Shown in pieces: positions 1 through 7,194 of a stretch of 9,131 nt of DNA. Position 1 is the stretch's first letter, and every line of letters begins with the position of its first letter. Source of the stretch: Escherichia coli (GTDB lineage: Bacteria > Pseudomonadota > Gammaproteobacteria > Enterobacterales > Enterobacteriaceae); the NCBI RefSeq assembly GCF_003334785.1, contig NZ_QOWV01000034.1. One strand, written 5' to 3'. The notes under the pieces were generated by a model, which saw only the letters and a program-made list of their open reading frames with translations, had not been told where the DNA came from and made no database searches. Made by a program: the position numbers and the translations under genes.

Positions 1-75
1 ATTCAGCGCAGTAGCTATCGCACGAATGCTCATTTTGGCTGACAAACCAGCTCGTATCTCCTCGCGCTCAGACAG

Positions 76-100
76 TGAACCGCCCCGGGAATCCTGGAGA
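76..100. repeat. Left terminal inverted repeat (IRL) of the IS element
   Basis: 25-bp sequence starting TGAAC, matching the reverse complement of 1361-1385 at 23/25 positions. Confidence 0.8.
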
Positions 101-129
101 CTAAACTTCCTGAGAAAGAGGTAAACAGG

Positions 130-456
130 ATGACTAAAAATACTCGTTTTTCCCCCGAAGTCCGTCAACGGGCAGTCCGTATGGTTCTGGAAAGTCAGAG
201 CGAATATGACTCACAATGGGCGACAATTTGTTCCATTGCTCCAAAGATTGGCTGTACGCCGGAGACTCTGCGTGTCTGGGTTCGCCAGCATGAGCGGGAT
301 ACCGGGGGCGGTGATGGTGGGCTCACCAGCGCTGAACGTCAGCGTCTGAAAGAGCTGGAACGTGAAAATCGTGAACTGCGCCGCAGTAACGATATCCTTC
401 GCCAGGCTTCCGCTTATTTTGCGAAGGCGGAGTTCGACCGCCTCTGGAAAAAATGA
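130..456 (+). CDS. IS3-family transposase OrfA (helix-turn-helix DNA-binding subunit with leucine-zipper-like C-terminus)
   Basis: 108-aa ORF. N-terminal HTH-like segment ([13 protein letters not shown]...[14 protein letters not shown]) and C-terminal heptad-like segment ([27 protein letters not shown]), as in IS3-family OrfA. Ends at the A6 slippery tract. Confidence 0.85.
448..456 (+). other. Candidate programmed -1 ribosomal frameshift / translational coupling site (A6 tract, AAAAAATGA) joining orfA and orfB
   Basis: A6 run at 448-453 directly before the overlapping ATGA. IS3-family elements commonly make an OrfAB fusion by -1 frameshifting on A-rich slippery sites. No downstream structure was evaluated. 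Confidence 0.4.
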
Positions 457-1343
457 TGCCACTGCTGGATAAGCTGCGTGAGCAGTACGGGGTCGGACCG
501 CTATGCAGCGAACTGCATATTGCCCCGTCAACGTATTACCACTGTCAGCAACAGCGACATCATCCGGATAAACGCAGTGCCCGTGCGCAGCGCGATGACT
601 GGCTGAAGAAAGAGATACAGCGCGTATACGATGAAAATCACAAGGTATACGGTGTGCGTAAAGTCTGGCGTCAGTTGTTACGGGAAGGTATCAGAGTGGC
701 CAGATGCACTGTGGCACGTCTCATGGCGGTTATGGGACTTGCCGGTGTTCTCCGGGGTAAAAAGGTCCGTACGACCATCAGCCGGAAAGCCGTTGCCGCA
801 GGCGACCGCGTAAACCGTCAGTTCGTGGCAGAACGACCTGACCAGCTGTGGGTGGCTGATTTTACTTACGTCAGCACATGGCAGGGCTTCGTCTATGTGG
901 CGTTTATCATTGATGTGTTTGCCGGATACATCGTGGGGTGGCGGGTCTCATCGTCTATGGAAACGACATTCGTGCTGGATGCGCTGGAGCAGGCGTTGTG
1001 GGCCCGTCGTCCGTCTGGCACCATCCATCACAGCGATAAAGGCTCTCAGTATGTGTCACTGGCCTATACGGAGCGACTAAAAGAAGCCGGATTACTGGCA
1101 TCAACAGGGAGTACAGGCGACTCGTATGACAACGCGATGGCGGAGAGCATCAATGGTCTTTACAAAGCGGAGGTAATACACCGTAAGAGCTGGAAAAACC
1201 GTGCAGAAGTGGAACTGGCCACACTAACGTGGGTGGACTGGTATAACAATCGACGATTGCTGGGAAGGCTGGGCCATACTCCTCCGGCAGAAGCAGAAAA
1301 AGCTTATTATGCTTCCATCGGAAACGATGATCTGGCAGCCTGA
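453..1343 (+). CDS. IS3-family transposase OrfB (DDE catalytic/integrase-core subunit)
   Basis: 296-aa ORF in the -1 frame relative to orfA. Candidate DDE residues in [16 protein letters not shown] and [13 protein letters not shown] (RNase-H-like transposase core). ATG at 453-455 overlaps orfA stop TGA at 454-456. Confidence 0.85.
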
Positions 1344-1360
1344 GTTCACAGATAAAACAC

Positions 1361-1385
1361 TCTCCAGGAAACCCGGGGCGGTTCA
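1361..1385. repeat. Right terminal inverted repeat (IRR) of the IS element
   Basis: Reverse complement TGAACCGCCCCGGGTTTCCTGGAGA pairs with 76-100; located 18 bp after the orfB stop codon (1341-1343). Confidence 0.8.
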
Positions 1386-1428
1386 TACTGTACGAAGAAA
1401 GAAACTACCGACTTCCGCGGAGATCACA

Positions 1429-1437
1429 TGGTAGAAT
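1429..1437 (+). promoter_or_regulatory. Candidate extended -10 promoter element (TGGTAGAAT) upstream of the 1507-2082 membrane protein gene
   Basis: TGnTAGAAT resembles an extended -10 (TG + TATAAT, 5/6 match) about 70 nt upstream of the ATG at 1507. No convincing -35. A GAGG Shine-Dalgarno lies about 6 nt before the ATG. Sequence-only guess. Confidence 0.25.
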
Positions 1438-1506
1438 GCTATGTGATAAAAAATGAGGTTGTGGTTGCCCGGGCCCAGATTGAAGTTCCCATAAGCTGAG
1501 GTTTTT

Positions 1507-2634: not shown

Positions 2635-3360
2635 TTATGATGTACATAATACCTTAAAATTATCAACTAGCTGAGCATTAACCTCCATCTGACTAATCCC
2701 CCATAATGCGGCTAACTGTTTCTCTGCAATCCCACTATCCCATGGCATTAGTGGGTCATTACGAAACTTAGCAAATGGCCCATCTGTTTCTGTAAGAATG
2801 CGTGATTTGGGTATTTTCAAAACTAAGGCCTTACCCTTTATTGTATCGAGCATAGCAGGCCCCACTGAGAACCAGCATCCTAAATCAATTGCCCTTTCAA
2901 GCTGCTTAGGTGTTCCAGTGAACCAATGCAATATTGCCACCCCATCGATATTTTCAATCTCATCAAGCACCGCTGATGCACTTCCCCGACTATGGATAGT
3001 CATAATCTTGCCACCAGCCCGATTTACACTGTTGAGAATGTGTCGGAACACTTTCAATTGAATATCCCAATGTTCTTTAAATCCCTGTCCACCATCAAGC
3101 CCTATTTCCCCTACATACTTAGTTTCCGAAAGCAATGAATCAAACAGGTCTAACTCATGCGATCTTTGATGCGCGATTTGAGGATGTAGCCCAAGAGCAG
3201 TTCGGATTCGTTGACTTTCTTTAGCCAATAAAGAAGTACCATGCCATGCTTTAGGTGTTGTTGTCACCGACAGAATATAAGTCCCTCGACGTTTACTTTC
3301 TTCAGCCACGAGGTCTGGCCGAGGATATAAGTCTAGATGACAGTGCATATCGATGCTCAT
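2635..3360 (-). CDS. qatD: TatD-family metal-dependent hydrolase/DNase, QatD of a Qat defence system
   Basis: 241-aa ORF beginning MSIDMHCHLDLY (the HxH metal-binding motif that opens TatD-family TIM-barrel hydrolases), with further conserved His/Asp/Glu positions. ATGA start/stop overlap with the upstream QueC-like gene at 3357-3360. Last gene of the operon. Confidence 0.85.
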   Translation of the reverse strand: MSIDMHCHLDLYPRPDLVAEESKRRGTYILSVTTTPKAWHGTSLLAKESQRIRTALGLHPQIAHQRSHELDLFDSLLSETKYVGEIGLDGGQGFKEHWDIQLKVFRHILNSVNRAGGKIMTIHSRGSASAVLDEIENIDGVAILHWFTGTPKQLERAIDLGCWFSVGPAMLDTIKGKALVLKIPKSRILTETDGPFAKFRNDPLMPWDSGIAEKQLAALWGISQMEVNAQLVDNFKVLCTS

Positions 3361-4676
3361 ACTATGTTCTCACTCAGTAAATAGCTTTCAACCTCATCTA
3401 GGCCATCCTTAAATACTTGCTTGAAATTATCAAATTCTGCCGTAGGCAAAGGGCCACTTTTGGCAATCCATGTACCTATTTTCAAAGTCGATTTCTGCGT
3501 GATCGCAATCCTAAGGGCGATCAGGTCGTCCCTGCGATCTATTTCATTCATTACTTTAGCTAAGGACTGGAAAATATATTCAACATCTCTACTAATTCCC
3601 CCTGCATGAAGTGATGCTCGTCGAATGATACACGGTATACATACCCCACATTGCTGCCCCATTCGTTTCCAATGACTGCAGGATACTGTACTTTCCACAA
3701 TTTTAGATAAGAGCTGCTTATTTGAACATTCGGAGATCATTTTTCCTTTTGTCTTAAACTGATATGGATTGATTATTTGACAAGAAATACCGAGCGCATC
3801 AAAGATCTTTTGTATGCTCGTAATAAAATGTGGATGTGTTGTTCGTGTGCTCAGCGAACCTATCCGCCGTGGAGTAAGTGGTGCATTTAATGAGATAAAT
3901 CCATTTTCAGGTACGAACAAATCAATCTTTTCTTGTTGAGATATCTCTTGTACGGCACAAGCACCTACGGCCGCAAGGGCAAGAAAATTGAGGCTACGAG
4001 TTCGCATCGTAATATCAGTCACGCCTTGATAAATGTGTGGGTCAGCATTAATCTCAAAGCGCGAAAATTGGCCACTTAATTTTTCAGCAATCTGATCTTG
4101 ACGAGACTTATCCCCTTTATAAGCATGACTAACCAAAAGTGGAGCGCGCCCTGCAGCCAGAAGATCTATTGCACCAATAGCTGAATCCAGACCTCCTGAA
4201 AATAAGCTGACACAGTCAAGCCCTTTTAGCTTAATCAGACGATGCCTTGAATGCTGGCTATAAGGCTCTGGCGGTGCATAACCATCGTCACAAAATTCGA
4301 AATCCCAGATGTCTCCACTAAGAAAATGCAAAGCACTCTCAAGTTCTTTCTTTAGACTAATCCATCTGGATGGTTCATGAAGGGGGAGTCGTAACGACAA
4401 TTGGCGGGTCCAACCATCCTCGGAACTTTCACGCTGAACGAAAGTATCTGCTGCAGTTACTGCTAATGCAACACTCAGAAAATCCATGACCTTAGCTGGA
4501 AGCTGTACTCCCAAACGTCTGATCCGATCAATCGCAGGATTCCCGATAACAGATATATCTCCGCGCCTCTGACCACTTAATCCATATAGCTGAACAGGTA
4601 ACACTTTCTCACTTGCTGGCGGCAAATGGTGATGTTTATGATGGAAAACTAATTGTGTCACTGGTATGCCTCCCAT
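3357..4676 (-). CDS. qatC: QueC-like PP-loop ATPase (7-cyano-7-deazaguanine synthase family) with an N-terminal extension, QatC
   Basis: 439-aa ORF. PP-loop motif SGGLDS at residues 160-165 (nt 4182-4199, minus strand). C-terminal cysteine cluster CSHWKRMGQQCGVCIPC resembling the QueC zinc site. Operon context with KAP NTPase and TatD. Confidence 0.8.
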   Translation of the reverse strand: MGGIPVTQLVFHHKHHHLPPASEKVLPVQLYGLSGQRRGDISVIGNPAIDRIRRLGVQLPAKVMDFLSVALAVTAADTFVQRESSEDGWTRQLSLRLPLHEPSRWISLKKELESALHFLSGDIWDFEFCDDGYAPPEPYSQHSRHRLIKLKGLDCVSLFSGGLDSAIGAIDLLAAGRAPLLVSHAYKGDKSRQDQIAEKLSGQFSRFEINADPHIYQGVTDITMRTRSLNFLALAAVGACAVQEISQQEKIDLFVPENGFISLNAPLTPRRIGSLSTRTTHPHFITSIQKIFDALGISCQIINPYQFKTKGKMISECSNKQLLSKIVESTVSCSHWKRMGQQCGVCIPCIIRRASLHAGGISRDVEYIFQSLAKVMNEIDRRDDLIALRIAITQKSTLKIGTWIAKSGPLPTAEFDNFKQVFKDGLDEVESYLLSENIV

Positions 4677-5410
4677 TCTTGCCAGGCCTCAATAATGGCC
4701 TGACGTTCAATTTTTACCATTTGGTTTCGTGTGAACGATCTTATGTTACCGGCAAGTTTTGGTGCCATATGTTTATCAACAACAACTTTAATCAATTCCC
4801 GGAGTTCAATTTCTGCATGAATTGCCTTTGAAGGTGTATCTGCTTTGTTCCATGCCCTATTAGAATCCATTACCATCTGAAGGAAAATACTTTCCGCTAG
4901 ATAACCAATCATTGTGTCAACAATCAAACCATCAGTTATTTTTTGAGGATCGAAAATTTCTACGCCATCAAGAGCCTCCACTAAAGCATGGTTCATGGCC
5001 GCACAGATCTTTTCTGAGTCACCATCCTGTGATGTTAAAGCTTGAGCAATAGTTGATATTGCTATTTCGCATGGAAGGCCTGCCAAACTGCCCAAATCGA
5101 TGCTTGGTTCTCCGGGAGCCGAAGGCATTCCCACTAAAGCCCCAAATAATTCGGCCCCAGCTTGCGTGACACTCCCTAATCGCCGAGCAGCGTTACTGCT
5201 CCCTCCGGAGGCTTTTCGCGCGTAGTGCCCTATGGCTTTTCTGAAATCTGCTCGATTTCCATTTGATACCGCATTTCCCAACGATTCTCGAAATGGCGCA
5301 AACCTCCTTTCTTGCGGCGAGGGTAACGGTTGCTGTGGCTGATCATCAGCCCATGGTGGAACCAGCGGAGAGCCACCTCCTGGACCTTTACTTGATTGTG
5401 ATGTTCCCAT
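4658..5410 (-). CDS. qatB: QatB, protein of unknown function (Gly/Pro/Ser-rich N-terminal ~100 aa followed by a helical domain)
   Basis: 250-aa ORF between the KAP NTPase and QueC-like genes. Start ATG shares one nucleotide with the qatA stop (TAATG at 5408-5412) and the 3' end overlaps the qatC start by 19 nt. Assignment is by operon position; no motif recognised. Confidence 0.6.
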   Translation of the reverse strand: MGTSQSSKGPGGGSPLVPPWADDQPQQPLPSPQERRFAPFRESLGNAVSNGNRADFRKAIGHYARKASGGSSNAARRLGSVTQAGAELFGALVGMPSAPGEPSIDLGSLAGLPCEIAISTIAQALTSQDGDSEKICAAMNHALVEALDGVEIFDPQKITDGLIVDTMIGYLAESIFLQMVMDSNRAWNKADTPSKAIHAEIELRELIKVVVDKHMAPKLAGNIRSFTRNQMVKIERQAIIEAWQEWEAYQ

Positions 5411-7194
5411 TAAGCGTCCTTATTCCATTGTTCATCTTTTAATGCTGCAGTCATCCACGCTGGTCGTTTCATCCCCAACTGTAATTCCTGTAGATAACGA
5501 ATTAATATGCTGGCTGCATCTGTTGAGTAGCGGGCCAACAGACATGCGCCGGAAAAGCCTCTGGGCTTACGATCCCAATCTGATACCTGCCGTAACTGGT
5601 TAATTAAACCTTCCATTACAGGTATTTGCTCCTCACGAGGAAGTGCTTTCAAAAGGTTTTCTGCTGTAGGAGAACTAGTGTTTTTCAATTCAATTAGTGC
5701 ATTTAGTACTTCCCGTCCAGATGGCGATAAACCAACCACATATGCACCTATTGGCATAGTTTCTCGGGACAGATATATGGCGGCCCTTAAGTCAATCCCA
5801 CCAAGACGAGGTTCAAGTTGGGCCCATTGACTGATGAAAGATTTAGTCGTTGGACTATCAGTCCATGTCTTTGGTGCATCAGTAGGTATTTGACCGCCAT
5901 TATCGTCAAGCTGTTTAAGTATCTGGGGAACACCTTGTTCAATATCCACGAGATGATATAAATCAGCGGTGCCATCCACTCCAACACAGCGTTCAAAAAT
6001 TACTAGCTTAGTAATAATTGCTTCATCCAAAGGCATTGCTCGTCGCTTCGCAATTTGAGATCGCATTTTCACAACATTCAACAAGCGTTTAACGATCCTG
6101 GGATTACCATGAATAATTGGAGAGTTGGCTAAAATGGGAGCAATACGGTCAGCACGCGCAAACGCCAGCGCGAGGTTGCTATCATCCGCTTCACCAGTCA
6201 TTTTTAAGGCCTCCTGACGTGAGATTGGTTCATCTTTCCAGGATTGCTGTAACGCCTTCTCTAAGCCCTCACGGAGCATAGTTATTTTTTCGCCTTCTAA
6301 GCCATGTTCAATGGCATAAAGCATGAACAGATACGAACGGATCTCACGGACCCCAGCCTTAGGCACCCGAATAGGAACCTGGATTAGCTTATCCAGATAA
6401 TCTATTTGATGGCGCTGTGATGCCCCTTTGAAGTAATCAGCCACAGAAGAGCGAATCATGTCCTCATCTGCTGCAATAATAAAGGCTGTATTAGTCAAGA
6501 AAAGGAATAGCCTGATAGCTTCAAGTGTATGGATAGCATTGGCAGGGAGACAGCGGTCTAGGTTATCTATTACCACAATGAGTGGCTTTCCAAGTTCTTC
6601 TAGAATTTCCCCATATTCCTTACGAAAGGCATCAATCTGCTGAGGGGGGCTTTTTTTTGTTTGTGGTTTAATCAAACCACAAGCAGTTTCTTTACCTTCT
6701 TTAGCTATATTGCCTAAAGCCTCATACTCTTCCTGGCTCTGGATGCCATCGGTGATATTTCTTAATGCACCAATCCCCCTAGAAAGCAAACCGCCAGTAG
6801 GTAATCCTGCCATTAAAGCTGTACCCTCAGCTAGTAATCCCATAGCTCTAAAACCATCAACTCGACTAAGGAGTCTCTTAGTTTTTGATATAAGGGTAGA
6901 ATTACCTTCAGCAGCTTTTGTCAATTCTGTAGCGATGACTTCAAGAAGTGCGGCACGGGCGTCGTCGTACCCCTGATAGAGCCAAGAGTCAAAATTGATA
7001 ACAATCCAATCTTTGTCGTCTTGCTCAAGTTTTTGCTCTATCAGTTTTAACAGAGAGGATTTACCTGCCCCCCAGTTTCCAAAAATTCCGATAGATACTG
7101 GTAACATATCTTTCGTGGTAAGTACATCCACGGCTAACTGAGATACTTCACCAAAATTTAGGTAGTCTTCTGATGACTCTTTGTCTGACCACAT
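5410..7194 (-). CDS. qatA: KAP-family P-loop NTPase, QatA
   Basis: 594-aa ORF. Walker A GNWGAGKSS at residues 39-47 (nt 7057-7080). Walker B-like PLIVVIDNLDRC, the hhhhDxLDR signature typical of KAP NTPases. AAGGAT RBS 6 nt upstream of ATG. First gene of the four-gene operon. Confidence 0.8.
   Translation of the reverse strand: MWSDKESSEDYLNFGEVSQLAVDVLTTKDMLPVSIGIFGNWGAGKSSLLKLIEQKLEQDDKDWIVINFDSWLYQGYDDARAALLEVIATELTKAAEGNSTLISKTKRLLSRVDGFRAMGLLAEGTALMAGLPTGGLLSRGIGALRNITDGIQSQEEYEALGNIAKEGKETACGLIKPQTKKSPPQQIDAFRKEYGEILEELGKPLIVVIDNLDRCLPANAIHTLEAIRLFLFLTNTAFIIAADEDMIRSSVADYFKGASQRHQIDYLDKLIQVPIRVPKAGVREIRSYLFMLYAIEHGLEGEKITMLREGLEKALQQSWKDEPISRQEALKMTGEADDSNLALAFARADRIAPILANSPIIHGNPRIVKRLLNVVKMRSQIAKRRAMPLDEAIITKLVIFERCVGVDGTADLYHLVDIEQGVPQILKQLDDNGGQIPTDAPKTWTDSPTTKSFISQWAQLEPRLGGIDLRAAIYLSRETMPIGAYVVGLSPSGREVLNALIELKNTSSPTAENLLKALPREEQIPVMEGLINQLRQVSDWDRKPRGFSGACLLARYSTDAASILIRYLQELQLGMKRPAWMTAALKDEQWNKDA

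What the first reader, a model, noticed from the sequence alone, without database searches (positions are those of the whole stretch)
4658..5410. QatB has a Gly/Pro/Ser-rich, probably disordered N-terminal ~100 residues starting MGTSQSSKGPGGGS: a candidate substrate for the adjacent QueC-like enzyme
Seen in sequence: the first ~100 residues are low-complexity (G, P, S, Q, A rich) with Gly immediately after the initiator Met, followed by a helical-looking domain. As I recall, QueC-like enzymes in defence operons (for example Cap9 of type IV CBASS) have been reported to conjugate a 7-deazaguanine-type nucleobase to a partner protein rather than make queuosine precursors. Inference: QatB, wedged between the NTPase and the QueC-like gene with overlapping reading frames, would be the natural conjugation target here, possibly at its N-terminus.
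Basis: inference. Interest (0 to 1): 0.55.

Follow-up and report, generated by a model that had tools for sequence, protein, structure and literature searches.

The report
QatB N-terminal tail, QatC's putative substrate
The glycine-tipped N-terminal tail of QatB is real and highly conserved, but its proposed role as the target of the neighbouring QueC-like enzyme QatC was published in 2025-2026, so this window adds only an untested short-tail E. coli variant.

Summary
The window carries an E. coli qatABCD anti-phage operon on the minus strand. QatB (4658-5410, 250 aa) does start MGTSQSSKGPGGGS. Its first 100 residues are 57% G/P/S/Q/A, against about 30% elsewhere.

"About 100 disordered residues" is an overestimate. 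AlphaFold2 places helices from residue 38, so only about 37 residues form a tail. That tail is a fixed-register conserved motif, (M)GTSxSxxGxxxxxPLVPPWAD, followed by a variable Pro-rich linker. 91 of 101 full-length cluster representatives start MGTS. A DNA pattern for the motif hit 120 genomic loci, all beside qatA and/or qatC.

The interpretation matches the published working model. Three 2025-2026 studies of distant homologues found:
- a 1:1 QatB-QatC complex;
- Gly2 in the QatC PP-loop site after Met1 removal;
- loss of defence with G2D.

No adduct has been detected. QatC replaces the deazaguanine-binding Tyr/Asp with invariant Thr/Thr (T277/T279 here), so a 7-deazaguanine conjugate is doubtful.

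This window's QatB belongs to a shorter, untested subtype. It is only remotely similar in sequence to the crystallised proteins, and RefSeq labels it "hypothetical protein".

Verdict: observation partly confirmed, interpretation supported, already known.

The parts
4658..5410 (-). qatB CDS (250 aa)
   Evidence: ORF. PADLOC QatB PDLC02212 E=2e-130. NCBIfam QatB NF041924 scores 74 bits, below its cutoff of 100, and covers residues 69-243 only. No Pfam hit. The AF2 model's only significant PDB matches are the QatB chains 9y01_A and 9y02_A.
5345..5410 (-). Codons 1-22: conserved N-terminal acceptor motif M1-G2-T3-S4-x-S6-x-x-G9-x5-P15-L16-V17-P18-P19-W20-A21-D22
   Evidence: The register is fixed, with no indels, across 92 cluster representatives. 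M1, G2 and T3 are invariant; S4, G9, P15 and P18 are at least 90% conserved. Third codon positions vary freely, so selection acts on the protein. A DNA pattern for this motif found 120 loci, all with a qatA and/or qatC homologue in the fetched DNA.
5306..5344 (-). Codons 23-35: Pro/Gln-rich variable linker (DQPQQPLPSPQER)
   Evidence: Sequence and length vary among homologues. The downstream RFxxFR motif starts anywhere from residue 32 to 79. QatB lengths are bimodal at 240-259 and 270-309 aa.
5288..5305 (-). Codons 36-41: RFAPFR motif at the start of helix 1
   Evidence: R41 is at least 90% conserved in A1 and F40 is invariant in A2. AF2 helix 1 begins at residue 38.
4670..5299 (-). Codons 38-247: all-alpha QatB body (10 helices)
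   Evidence: AF2 mean pLDDT 97. Foldseek against QatB chains of QatB-QatC crystal structures gives E=1e-7, TM 0.60/0.68.
3357..4676 (-). qatC CDS (439 aa), a QueC-like PP-loop enzyme and the proposed modifier of QatB
   Evidence: PADLOC QatC E=1e-140. NCBIfam QatC NF041925 scores 414 bits, above its cutoff of 280. PDB QatC chains 9zee_B E=1e-63 and 9vlk_A E=2e-54. Weak Pfam QueC PF06508 hit, E=3e-4.
4182..4199 (-). QatC PP-loop S160-G-G-L-D164-S165 (ATP pyrophosphate binding)
   Evidence: Regex. SGGxDS is present in 94 of 98 QatC genes downstream of QatB in other genomes. The equivalent S156A/S161A mutant abolishes defence in homologues (PMC13279940).
3840..3848 (-). QatC T277-R-T279, replacing the Tyr-x-Asp that binds 7-deazaguanine in QueC and Cap9
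   Evidence: STRTTHP at residue 276. STRTxHP is present in 81 of 98 QatC homologues; I take most of the other 17 to be cut by locus ends, but did not check. It corresponds to Pa T278/T280 and Ec T276/T278 (PMC13279940; 10.1101/2025.11.03.686418).
3630..3680 (-). QatC zinc-site cysteines C333, C343, C346, C349
   Evidence: Regex. The alignment to 9zee_B pairs the SCS and CGxCxPC segments.
5410..7194 (-). qatA CDS (594 aa, KAP-family P-loop NTPase)
   Evidence: PADLOC QatA PDLC02210, 1133 bits. NCBIfam QatA scores 386 bits, below its cutoff of 600.
2635..3360 (-). qatD CDS (241 aa, TatD-family nuclease)
   Evidence: PADLOC QatD E=6e-97. NCBIfam QatD scores 331 bits, above its cutoff of 230.

Best explanation
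QatB is the protein substrate, the "second substrate", of the PP-loop enzyme QatC.

Proposed sequence of events:
1. Met1 is removed.
2. The free alpha-amine of Gly2, at the tip of a roughly 37-residue non-helical tail, sits in the QatC active site beside the ATP alpha-phosphate. The conserved GTSxSxxG and PLVPPW elements lie in the QatC cleft.
3. QatC uses ATP to adenylate a first substrate, probably a carboxylate.
4. The Gly2 amine attacks it and forms an N-terminal amide adduct that switches on defence.

The first substrate is unknown. It is probably not 7-carboxy-7-deazaguanine, because the Tyr/Asp that read the deazaguanine are Thr/Thr in all QatC proteins. It may appear only during infection.

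What is shown and what is inferred:
- Shown here: motif presence, conservation and Qat-specificity; the QatC catalytic motifs; a predicted QatB-QatC complex.
- Shown in the literature for homologues only: complex formation, Gly2 in the active site, Met1 removal, and the genetic essentiality of Gly2 and the PP-loop.
- Inferred: the covalent chemistry and its downstream effect.
For: - The window QatB has the full motif.
- 91 of 101 unselected full-length representatives start MGTS. The P18-x-W20 element is at a fixed distance from Gly2.
- 7 of the 12 most conserved QatB positions lie within residues 1-18.
- Synonymous positions vary freely, so conservation is at the protein level.
- All 120 genomic hits to the motif pattern have a qatA and/or qatC homologue in the fetched DNA, across many phyla.
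- The window QatC keeps the SGGLDS PP-loop and the Zn cysteines.
- The QatB AF2 model matches only crystallised QatB chains.
- A QatB-linker-QatC fusion modelled with 17 paired sequences gives pTM 0.86, with only the artificial linker disordered. This implies a confidently docked complex.
- Literature on homologues: PMC13279940, PMC13376578 and 10.1101/2025.11.03.686418. The precedent of Cap9-CdnD NDG conjugation is in 10.1101/2025.04.06.647259.
Against: - No adduct has been detected on QatB expressed in bacteria or from in vitro reactions. No ATP pyrophosphatase activity was seen for QatC, QatBC or QatBCD, with or without CDG (10.1101/2025.11.03.686418; PMC13376578).
- A QatB 2-21 peptide does not bind QatC, and deleting residues 2-50 barely changes affinity (PMC13376578).
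- The tail also binds QatD: deletion of residues 1-46 loses QatD binding.
- All experiments used long-tail homologues remotely related to this QatB (E=1e-8 and 2e-4).
- In my fused model the first 10 residues reach only pLDDT 67, and the tool gives no coordinates. Insertion into the active site is therefore untested for this subtype.
Confidence: 0.7

Rival explanations
1. Literal deazaguanylation. QatC attaches 7-amido-7-deazaguanine (NDG), made from the queuosine precursor CDG, to Gly2 of QatB, exactly as Cap9 does to CdnD in type IV CBASS.
For: - QatC is a QueC-family PP-loop enzyme.
- MGTS closely resembles the CD-NTase MGGS acceptor motif (PMC13279940).
- The Gly2 amines of QatB and CdnD superpose within about 1.2 A (PMC13376578).
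- E. coli makes CDG (general knowledge of the queuosine pathway).
Against: - The CDG-reading Tyr/Asp pair is Thr/Thr in this QatC (T277/T279). STRTxHP is present in 81 of 98 homologues; I take most of the other 17 to be truncated, but did not check.
- The canonical QueC motifs YxQxHxxE, VPxRN and YPDC are absent (PMC13329287).
- Converting T/T to Y/D abolishes defence (PMC13279940).
- CDG is absent from soaked crystals, no activity is seen with CDG, and MS finds no NDG.
- QatC does not complement a queC deletion (PMC13329287).
- No TGT-like Cap10 reader is present in the operon.
Confidence: 0.15
2. No covalent chemistry on QatB. The tail is a docking or regulatory peptide. It acts as a pseudosubstrate plug of the QatC site and/or as the tether that holds the QatD nuclease, and it switches partners on infection.
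For: - No modification or turnover has been detected despite extensive trials.
- QatB lacking residues 1-46 loses QatD binding but keeps QatC binding, and AF3 models place the tail on QatD.
- AF2 gives the tail high confidence even in a QatB-only model, suggesting it can pack in more than one place.
Against: - QatC PP-loop (ATP-site) mutants abolish defence, so catalysis matters.
- Invariance of Gly2 with a required free N-terminus fits an amine nucleophile better than a docking peptide: G2D and an N-terminal His-tag both disrupt defence.
- QatBC alone, without QatD, defends against lambda-vir.
Confidence: 0.13
3. The N-terminal region is merely a compositionally biased, disordered spacer with no specific role. 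Gly after Met is coincidence.
For: G/P/S/Q/A-rich composition. The linker at residues 23-35 does vary in length and sequence.
Against: - Fixed-register conservation of residues 1-22 across clusters sharing at most 50% identity.
- 120 of 120 motif hits lie in Qat loci.
- Free synonymous variation.
- Mutational data in homologues.
Confidence: 0.02

Closest known systems
E. coli NCTC9009 QatB-QatC complex (PDB 9VLL; also 9VLK for QatC alone; PMC13376578 and 10.1101/2025.11.03.686418). PDB 9Y01/9Y02 are QatB-QatC complex entries whose source organism was not checked here.
   Same: - Same four-gene operon.
- Same MGTS start and PxW element.
- Same all-alpha QatB fold (Foldseek to 9Y01_A E=1e-7, TM 0.60/0.68).
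- QatC has the SGGxDS loop, Thr-x-Thr and a Zn site.
   Different: - QatB sequence similarity is remote (9vll_A E=1e-8; 17% identity to 9Y01_A).
- The chain is 282 aa against 250 here, so the Pro-rich linker is much shorter in the window.
- QatC has a Zn loop 10 residues shorter.
- The window's QatA and QatB fall under the NCBIfam equivalog cutoffs.
- No experiment exists on this subtype.
P. aeruginosa QatB-QatC complex (PDB 9ZEE/9ZEF; PMC13279940)
   Same: MGTS motif. Pa P16/W18 correspond to P18/W20 here. T278/T280 correspond to T277/T279. QatC matches at E=1e-63.
   Different: - The Pa tail is 65 residues and is unresolved in the crystals. Here about 37 residues are non-helical and AF2 places them confidently.
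- QatB similarity is marginal (E=2e-4).
Type IV CBASS Cap9-CdnD deazaguanylation (PDB 9NTO; 10.1101/2025.04.06.647259)
   Same: A QueC-fold PP-loop enzyme engages the N-terminal tail of a partner protein, whose Gly2 amine (after Met removal) is the nucleophile. The acceptor motif M-G-[G/T]-S is similar.
   Different: - The substrate is a CD-NTase with no fold similarity to QatB.
- Cap9 keeps the Tyr/Asp CDG site; QatC does not.
- CBASS has a TGT-like reader, Cap10; Qat has a KAP NTPase and a TatD nuclease instead.
- The NDG adduct is demonstrated for CdnD and undetected for QatB.
Two-substrate PP-loop ATP pyrophosphatases (argininosuccinate synthetase, asparagine synthetase, NAD synthetase, LarE)
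   Same: Adenylation of a first substrate's oxygen, followed by attack from an amine second substrate. QatB Gly2 overlays the second-substrate site of argininosuccinate synthetase (PMC13376578).
   Different: Here the nucleophile is a protein N-terminus and the first substrate is unknown.
Eukaryotic N-myristoylation signal (M-G-x-x-x-S/T), cited from my own knowledge as an analogy only
   Same: Met removal exposes Gly2, whose amine is acylated. MGTSQS fits the G-x-x-x-S pattern.
   Different: The enzyme family and acyl donor are unrelated (GNAT-fold NMT with acyl-CoA). There is no evidence for lipidation of QatB.

Membership tests
QatABCD anti-phage system | Co-oriented operon qatA (KAP NTPase) - qatB - qatC (QueC-like) - qatD (TatD nuclease) | tested here: met
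   ORFs. PADLOC hits for all four proteins. NCBIfam QatC and QatD score above their cutoffs; QatA and QatB score below theirs. Overlapping stop and start codons.
QatABCD anti-phage system | QatB fold: all-alpha body of about 10 helices behind an N-terminal tail | tested here: met
   AF2 pLDDT 97 with 10 helices. The only significant PDB matches are QatB chains 9y01_A and 9y02_A.
QatABCD anti-phage system | Protects against phage | not testable with these tools
   No experiment on this CFT073/TW10722-type operon was found. Published assays used the NCTC9009 and P. aeruginosa operons.
QueC-enzyme protein substrate (criteria listed in PMC13279940) | N-terminal Met-Gly-Thr/Gly-Ser acceptor motif | tested here: met
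   MGTS in the window. 91 of 101 representatives start MGTS. G2 and T3 are invariant.
QueC-enzyme protein substrate (criteria listed in PMC13279940) | Second conserved tail element (Pa P16/W18), required for defence | tested here: met
   P18 in 90 of 92 and W20 in 79 of 92, in fixed register. Its essentiality cannot be tested here.
QueC-enzyme protein substrate (criteria listed in PMC13279940) | Long unstructured N-terminus | tested here: inconclusive
   Residues 1-37 have no regular secondary structure, but their pLDDT is 86-97 in the QatB-only model and 67-82 in the fusion. The tail is about half the length of the studied homologues.
QueC-enzyme protein substrate (criteria listed in PMC13279940) | Stable complex with the QueC-like enzyme | tested here: met
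   Prediction only. The QatB-(GGGGS)10-QatC fusion gives pTM 0.86, with only the linker below pLDDT 50. Two independently placed domains of 249 and 439 residues would give roughly 0.55-0.6 (my inference).
QueC-enzyme protein substrate (criteria listed in PMC13279940) | N-terminal amine positioned in the PP-loop active site | tested here: inconclusive
   The structure tool returns no coordinates or contacts. pLDDT of residues 1-10 in the fusion is only 67. This is shown crystallographically for the NCTC9009 homologue only.
QueC-enzyme protein substrate (criteria listed in PMC13279940) | Covalent adduct on Gly2 | not testable with these tools
   Needs mass spectrometry. It has not been detected in homologues.
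Canonical QueC (7-cyano-7-deazaguanine synthase, PF06508 / TIGR00364) | SGGxDS PP-loop and Zn-binding cysteine cluster | tested here: met
   S160GGLDS165; C333, C343, C346, C349.
Canonical QueC (7-cyano-7-deazaguanine synthase, PF06508 / TIGR00364) | CDG-recognition Tyr-x-Asp and the signature motifs YxQxHxxE, VPxRN, YPDC | tested here: not met
   None of these motifs is present. T277-R-T279 occupies the Tyr-x-Asp position. TIGR00364 scores 21 bits against a cutoff of 150. Pfam QueC hits only at E=3e-4.
Type IV CBASS deazaguanylation module | CD-NTase substrate plus a TGT-like Cap10 reader | tested here: not met
   No CD-NTase or TGT-like gene lies in the operon. The QatB fold is unrelated to CD-NTases.

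The most novel reading that the evidence does not exclude
QatC does not deazaguanylate. It ligates a chemically different carboxylate onto the Gly2 amine of QatB, creating a previously unknown N-terminal protein modification. The carboxylate might be a metabolite that appears only during infection. An acyl group that sends QatB to the membrane would fit the report that RIIA/RIIB-like phage proteins counter Qat. The conserved 22-residue tail would then toggle between the QatC site and QatD. The short-tail subtype in this window may be an easier system in which to trap the adduct.
Probability: 0.4. Interest if true: 0.8.

Novelty: already known. Interest (0 to 1): 0.28.

Why it matters
Protein N-terminal modification by repurposed nucleobase-biosynthesis enzymes is a new theme in bacterial immunity. 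Qat is widespread: this subtype alone is in 250 of 5,426 complete E. coli genomes. The open problem is what QatC attaches and how that stops phage. This window does not solve it.

It does show three things:
- The acceptor motif is a strict, phylum-spanning hallmark that identifies QatB even where annotation fails.
- A naturally short-tailed variant exists that nobody has tested.
- The curated NCBIfam QatB model leaves out the one segment known to be essential.

Tried and rejected
1. The search for related loci with QatB alignments A1 and A2 failed because no stretch was conserved enough. I replaced it with a degenerate DNA pattern for the 20-codon motif.
2. Pfam and PHROGs give nothing for QatB.
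3. "About 100 disordered residues" is rejected. Helices start at residue 38, and residues 41-100 hold conserved positions.
4. I tried a fused QatB-linker-QatC AF2 model to see whether Gly2 reaches the PP-loop. It gives a confident overall assembly (pTM 0.86), but the tool reports no contacts. The N-terminal pLDDT fell to 67 with the shallow 17-sequence paired alignment, so that question stays open.
5. I considered whether conservation of the first codons could come from overlap with qatA or from an RNA element. This is rejected: the overlap is 1 nt, third positions vary freely, and Rfam finds nothing there.
6. I considered mutual-information analysis between the QatB tail and QatC on 64 pairs. 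I did not run it because there are too few, phylogenetically structured sequences.
7. The promoter and terminator scans found no more sites than the shuffled controls.
Full report
**What is in the window.** The minus strand carries a complete qatABCD anti-phage operon:

| Gene | Coordinates | Product |
|---|---|---|
| qatA | 5410-7194 | KAP-family NTPase, 594 aa |
| qatB | 4658-5410 | 250 aa |
| qatC | 3357-4676 | QueC-like PP-loop enzyme, 439 aa |
| qatD | 2635-3360 | TatD-family nuclease, 241 aa |

- The genes are translationally coupled. The junctions are TAATG at qatA/qatB and ATGA at qatC/qatD. qatB and qatC overlap by 19 nt, or by 4 nt if QatC starts at the GTG at 4661.
- The DNA is E. 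coli. It is 99.7% identical over its whole length to strain TW10722, and the qat part is shared with CFT073.
- The qatBC segment occurs at 99% identity or more in 250 of 5,426 complete E. coli genomes.

**Checking the observation.**
- The ORF, its coordinates and the sequence MGTSQSSKGPGGGS are correct.
- The composition bias is real. G+P+S+Q+A is 57% in residues 1-100, against 31% in residues 101-250 and 30% in the other window proteins.
- The structural reading is only partly right. AlphaFold2 on a 93-sequence alignment (mean pLDDT 97) places helices at 38-50, 53-67, 71-77 and 79-93, followed by six more. Only residues 1-37 lack secondary structure.
- The model's only significant matches in the PDB are QatB chains from QatB-QatC crystal structures (E=1e-7, TM 0.60/0.68).
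- Residues 41-100 look Ala/Gly/Ser-rich but hold some of the family's most conserved positions: R41, G69, G70 and R77.

**The tail is a motif, not low complexity.**
- An exhaustive HMMER search of 1.84 billion cluster representatives found 454 relatives.
- Of the 101 full-length ones, 91 begin MGTS. Most of the others look like mis-called starts, for example MVPPW....
- Residues 1-22 align without any indel. M1, G2 and T3 are invariant. S4, G9, P15 and P18 are at least 90% conserved. S6, L16, V17, P19, W20, A21 and D22 are each the commonest residue at their position (54-79 of 92).
- After this comes a Pro-rich linker of variable length, then an RFxxFR motif at the start of helix 1.
- I converted the motif into a degenerate 60-nt DNA pattern and scanned 100,044 species genomes.
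- Every one of the 120 has a qatA and/or qatC homologue in the fetched DNA. Among the hits, third codon positions vary freely (identity 0.36), so selection acts on the peptide.
- QatB lengths are bimodal, at 240-259 and 270-309 aa. The window's protein belongs to the short class. That class pairs with the QatC clade closest to the window's QatC.

**QatC.**
- The window's QatC has the PP-loop S160GGLDS165 and the zinc cysteines C333, C343, C346 and C349.
- It lacks the canonical QueC motifs YxQxHxxE, VPxRN and YPDC.
- T277-R-T279 sits where QueC and Cap9 have the Tyr-x-Asp that binds 7-deazaguanine.
- STRTxHP is present in 81 of 98 QatC genes found downstream of QatB in other genomes, and SGGxDS in 94 of 98.

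**What the literature already says.** Cap9 of type IV CBASS conjugates 7-amido-7-deazaguanine (NDG) to Gly2 of the CD-NTase CdnD (10.1101/2025.04.06.647259).
- **Gao, Wassarman and Kranzusch (PMC13279940).**
  - P. aeruginosa QatB and QatC form a 1:1 complex, and QatBC alone is sufficient for defence against lambda-vir.
  - The QatB tail carries a "highly conserved MGTS motif".
  - G2D, deletion of residues 16-22 and PP-loop mutations all abolish defence.
  - Thr278 and Thr280 replace Tyr and Asp.
  - No activity could be reconstituted in vitro.
- **Oh and Bae (PMC13376578).**
  - In E. coli NCTC9009, QatB residues 2-10 lie in the QatC active-site cleft.
  - There is no ATP pyrophosphatase activity with CDG.
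- **Gao Z. et al. (10.1101/2025.11.03.686418).**
  - They report the same structure, with the Gly2 amine contacting the ATP alpha-phosphate.
  - Mass spectrometry did not detect NDG on QatB.
  - QatB lacking residues 1-46 loses QatD binding.
- A QueC-family survey reports that QatC cannot complement a queC deletion (PMC13329287).

**How this locus relates to those studies.**
- The window's QatB is only remotely similar in sequence to the crystallised proteins (E=1e-8 and 2e-4). QatC is closer (E=1e-63 and 2e-54).
- QatA and QatB fall below the NCBIfam equivalog cutoffs. The NCBIfam QatB model covers only residues 69-243, so RefSeq calls this protein "hypothetical".
- I found no paper that mentions both QatABCD and CFT073.
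pTM was 0.86 and only the linker fell below pLDDT 50. This implies a confidently docked complex.
- The first ten residues reached only pLDDT 67, and the tool gives no contacts. Whether Gly2 reaches the PP-loop in this subtype remains unverified.

**Mechanism and rivals.**
- **Most likely (about 0.7).** Mature QatB presents its Gly2 amine in the QatC active site. It acts as the nucleophile on an ATP-activated first substrate of unknown identity.
- **A literal 7-deazaguanine adduct is unlikely (about 0.15).** The binding site is remodelled and the biochemistry is negative.
- **A non-covalent docking or QatD-tethering role stays possible (about 0.13)** until an adduct is seen.
- **A functionless disordered spacer is excluded** by the conservation data.
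- A phage knockout screen found that RIIA/RIIB-like proteins counter Qat, and its authors proposed QatB as a membrane effector (10.1101/2024.10.10.617714). Combined with the myristoylation-like MGxxxS pattern, this suggests a speculative N-acylation idea. I list it only as the novel case.

**Verdict.** The new elements here are modest:
- the strict specificity and fixed register of the 22-residue motif;
- a short-tail subtype that has not been tested;
- an annotation gap in the curated QatB model.

Noticed in passing
window 7414-7465, inside ORF 7326-8447 (-): A perfect 9-bp tandem repeat (TCAGCAACC, 5.8 copies) encodes (AEV)n in a 373-aa protein of unknown function. The gene lies 132 nt upstream of qatA on the same strand. 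In E. coli BS74R-D the same gene has 38.8 copies (472 aa), so this is an in-frame variable-number repeat. The only family hit is a weak PADLOC PD-Lambda-4_B match (E=4e-6). A promoter-like site lies upstream of it and none lies between it and qatA, so it may be co-transcribed with qat.
   Followed up: partly
window 1-1500: An IS3-family insertion sequence (orfA 130-456, orfB 453-1343, ALIL frameshift pseudoknot 411-527) has replaced most of a 442-aa "nucleotide-binding domain" gene that precedes the SLATT gene in other strains. The SLATT/2TM effector gene (1507-2082, PADLOC 2TM effector E=2e-82) is left without its partner, so this looks like a disabled two-gene defence module.
   Followed up: partly
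window 4655-4680 (-): QatC may start at the GTG at 4661 (Val6 of the annotated protein) rather than the ATG at 4676. GGGAGG lies 7 nt upstream of the GTG, and GTGA overlaps the qatB stop codon, a classic coupling arrangement. The family models align only from residue 7 (PADLOC) or residue 53 (NCBIfam).
   Followed up: partly
window 4658-5410 (-) and RefSeq records: RefSeq mostly annotates this QatB as "hypothetical protein". The NCBIfam QatB model NF041924 has 179 positions, starts at residue 69 and so omits the essential N-terminal tail. This subtype scores 74 bits against a cutoff of 100. QatA is also under its cutoff (386 against 600).
   Followed up: yes
loci L002-L121 (genome contigs): QatB lengths are bimodal, at 240-259 aa (24 loci) and 270-309 aa (74 loci). 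The difference appears to lie in the Pro-rich linker after residue 22. The short class pairs with the QatC clade nearest the window's QatC, which suggests two co-evolving QatBC subtypes. All published structures are of the long class.
   Followed up: partly
window 5300-5410 (-), QatB residues 1-37: AlphaFold2 gives the non-helical tail pLDDT 86-97 in a QatB-only model. In the QatB-QatC fusion it drops to 67-82, and a short helix appears at the PWA element. This is unexpected for a segment that is invisible in the P. aeruginosa crystals. It may mean the short tail packs on the QatB body, or that AF2 is overconfident.
   Followed up: no
window 8686-9066 (-): A remnant of a VasL-domain (type VI secretion) gene. 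In TW10722 it is followed by IS66 elements, and an ImpA-family T6SS gene fragment lies further along. The qat operon therefore sits in a decayed, IS-rich island.
   Followed up: no
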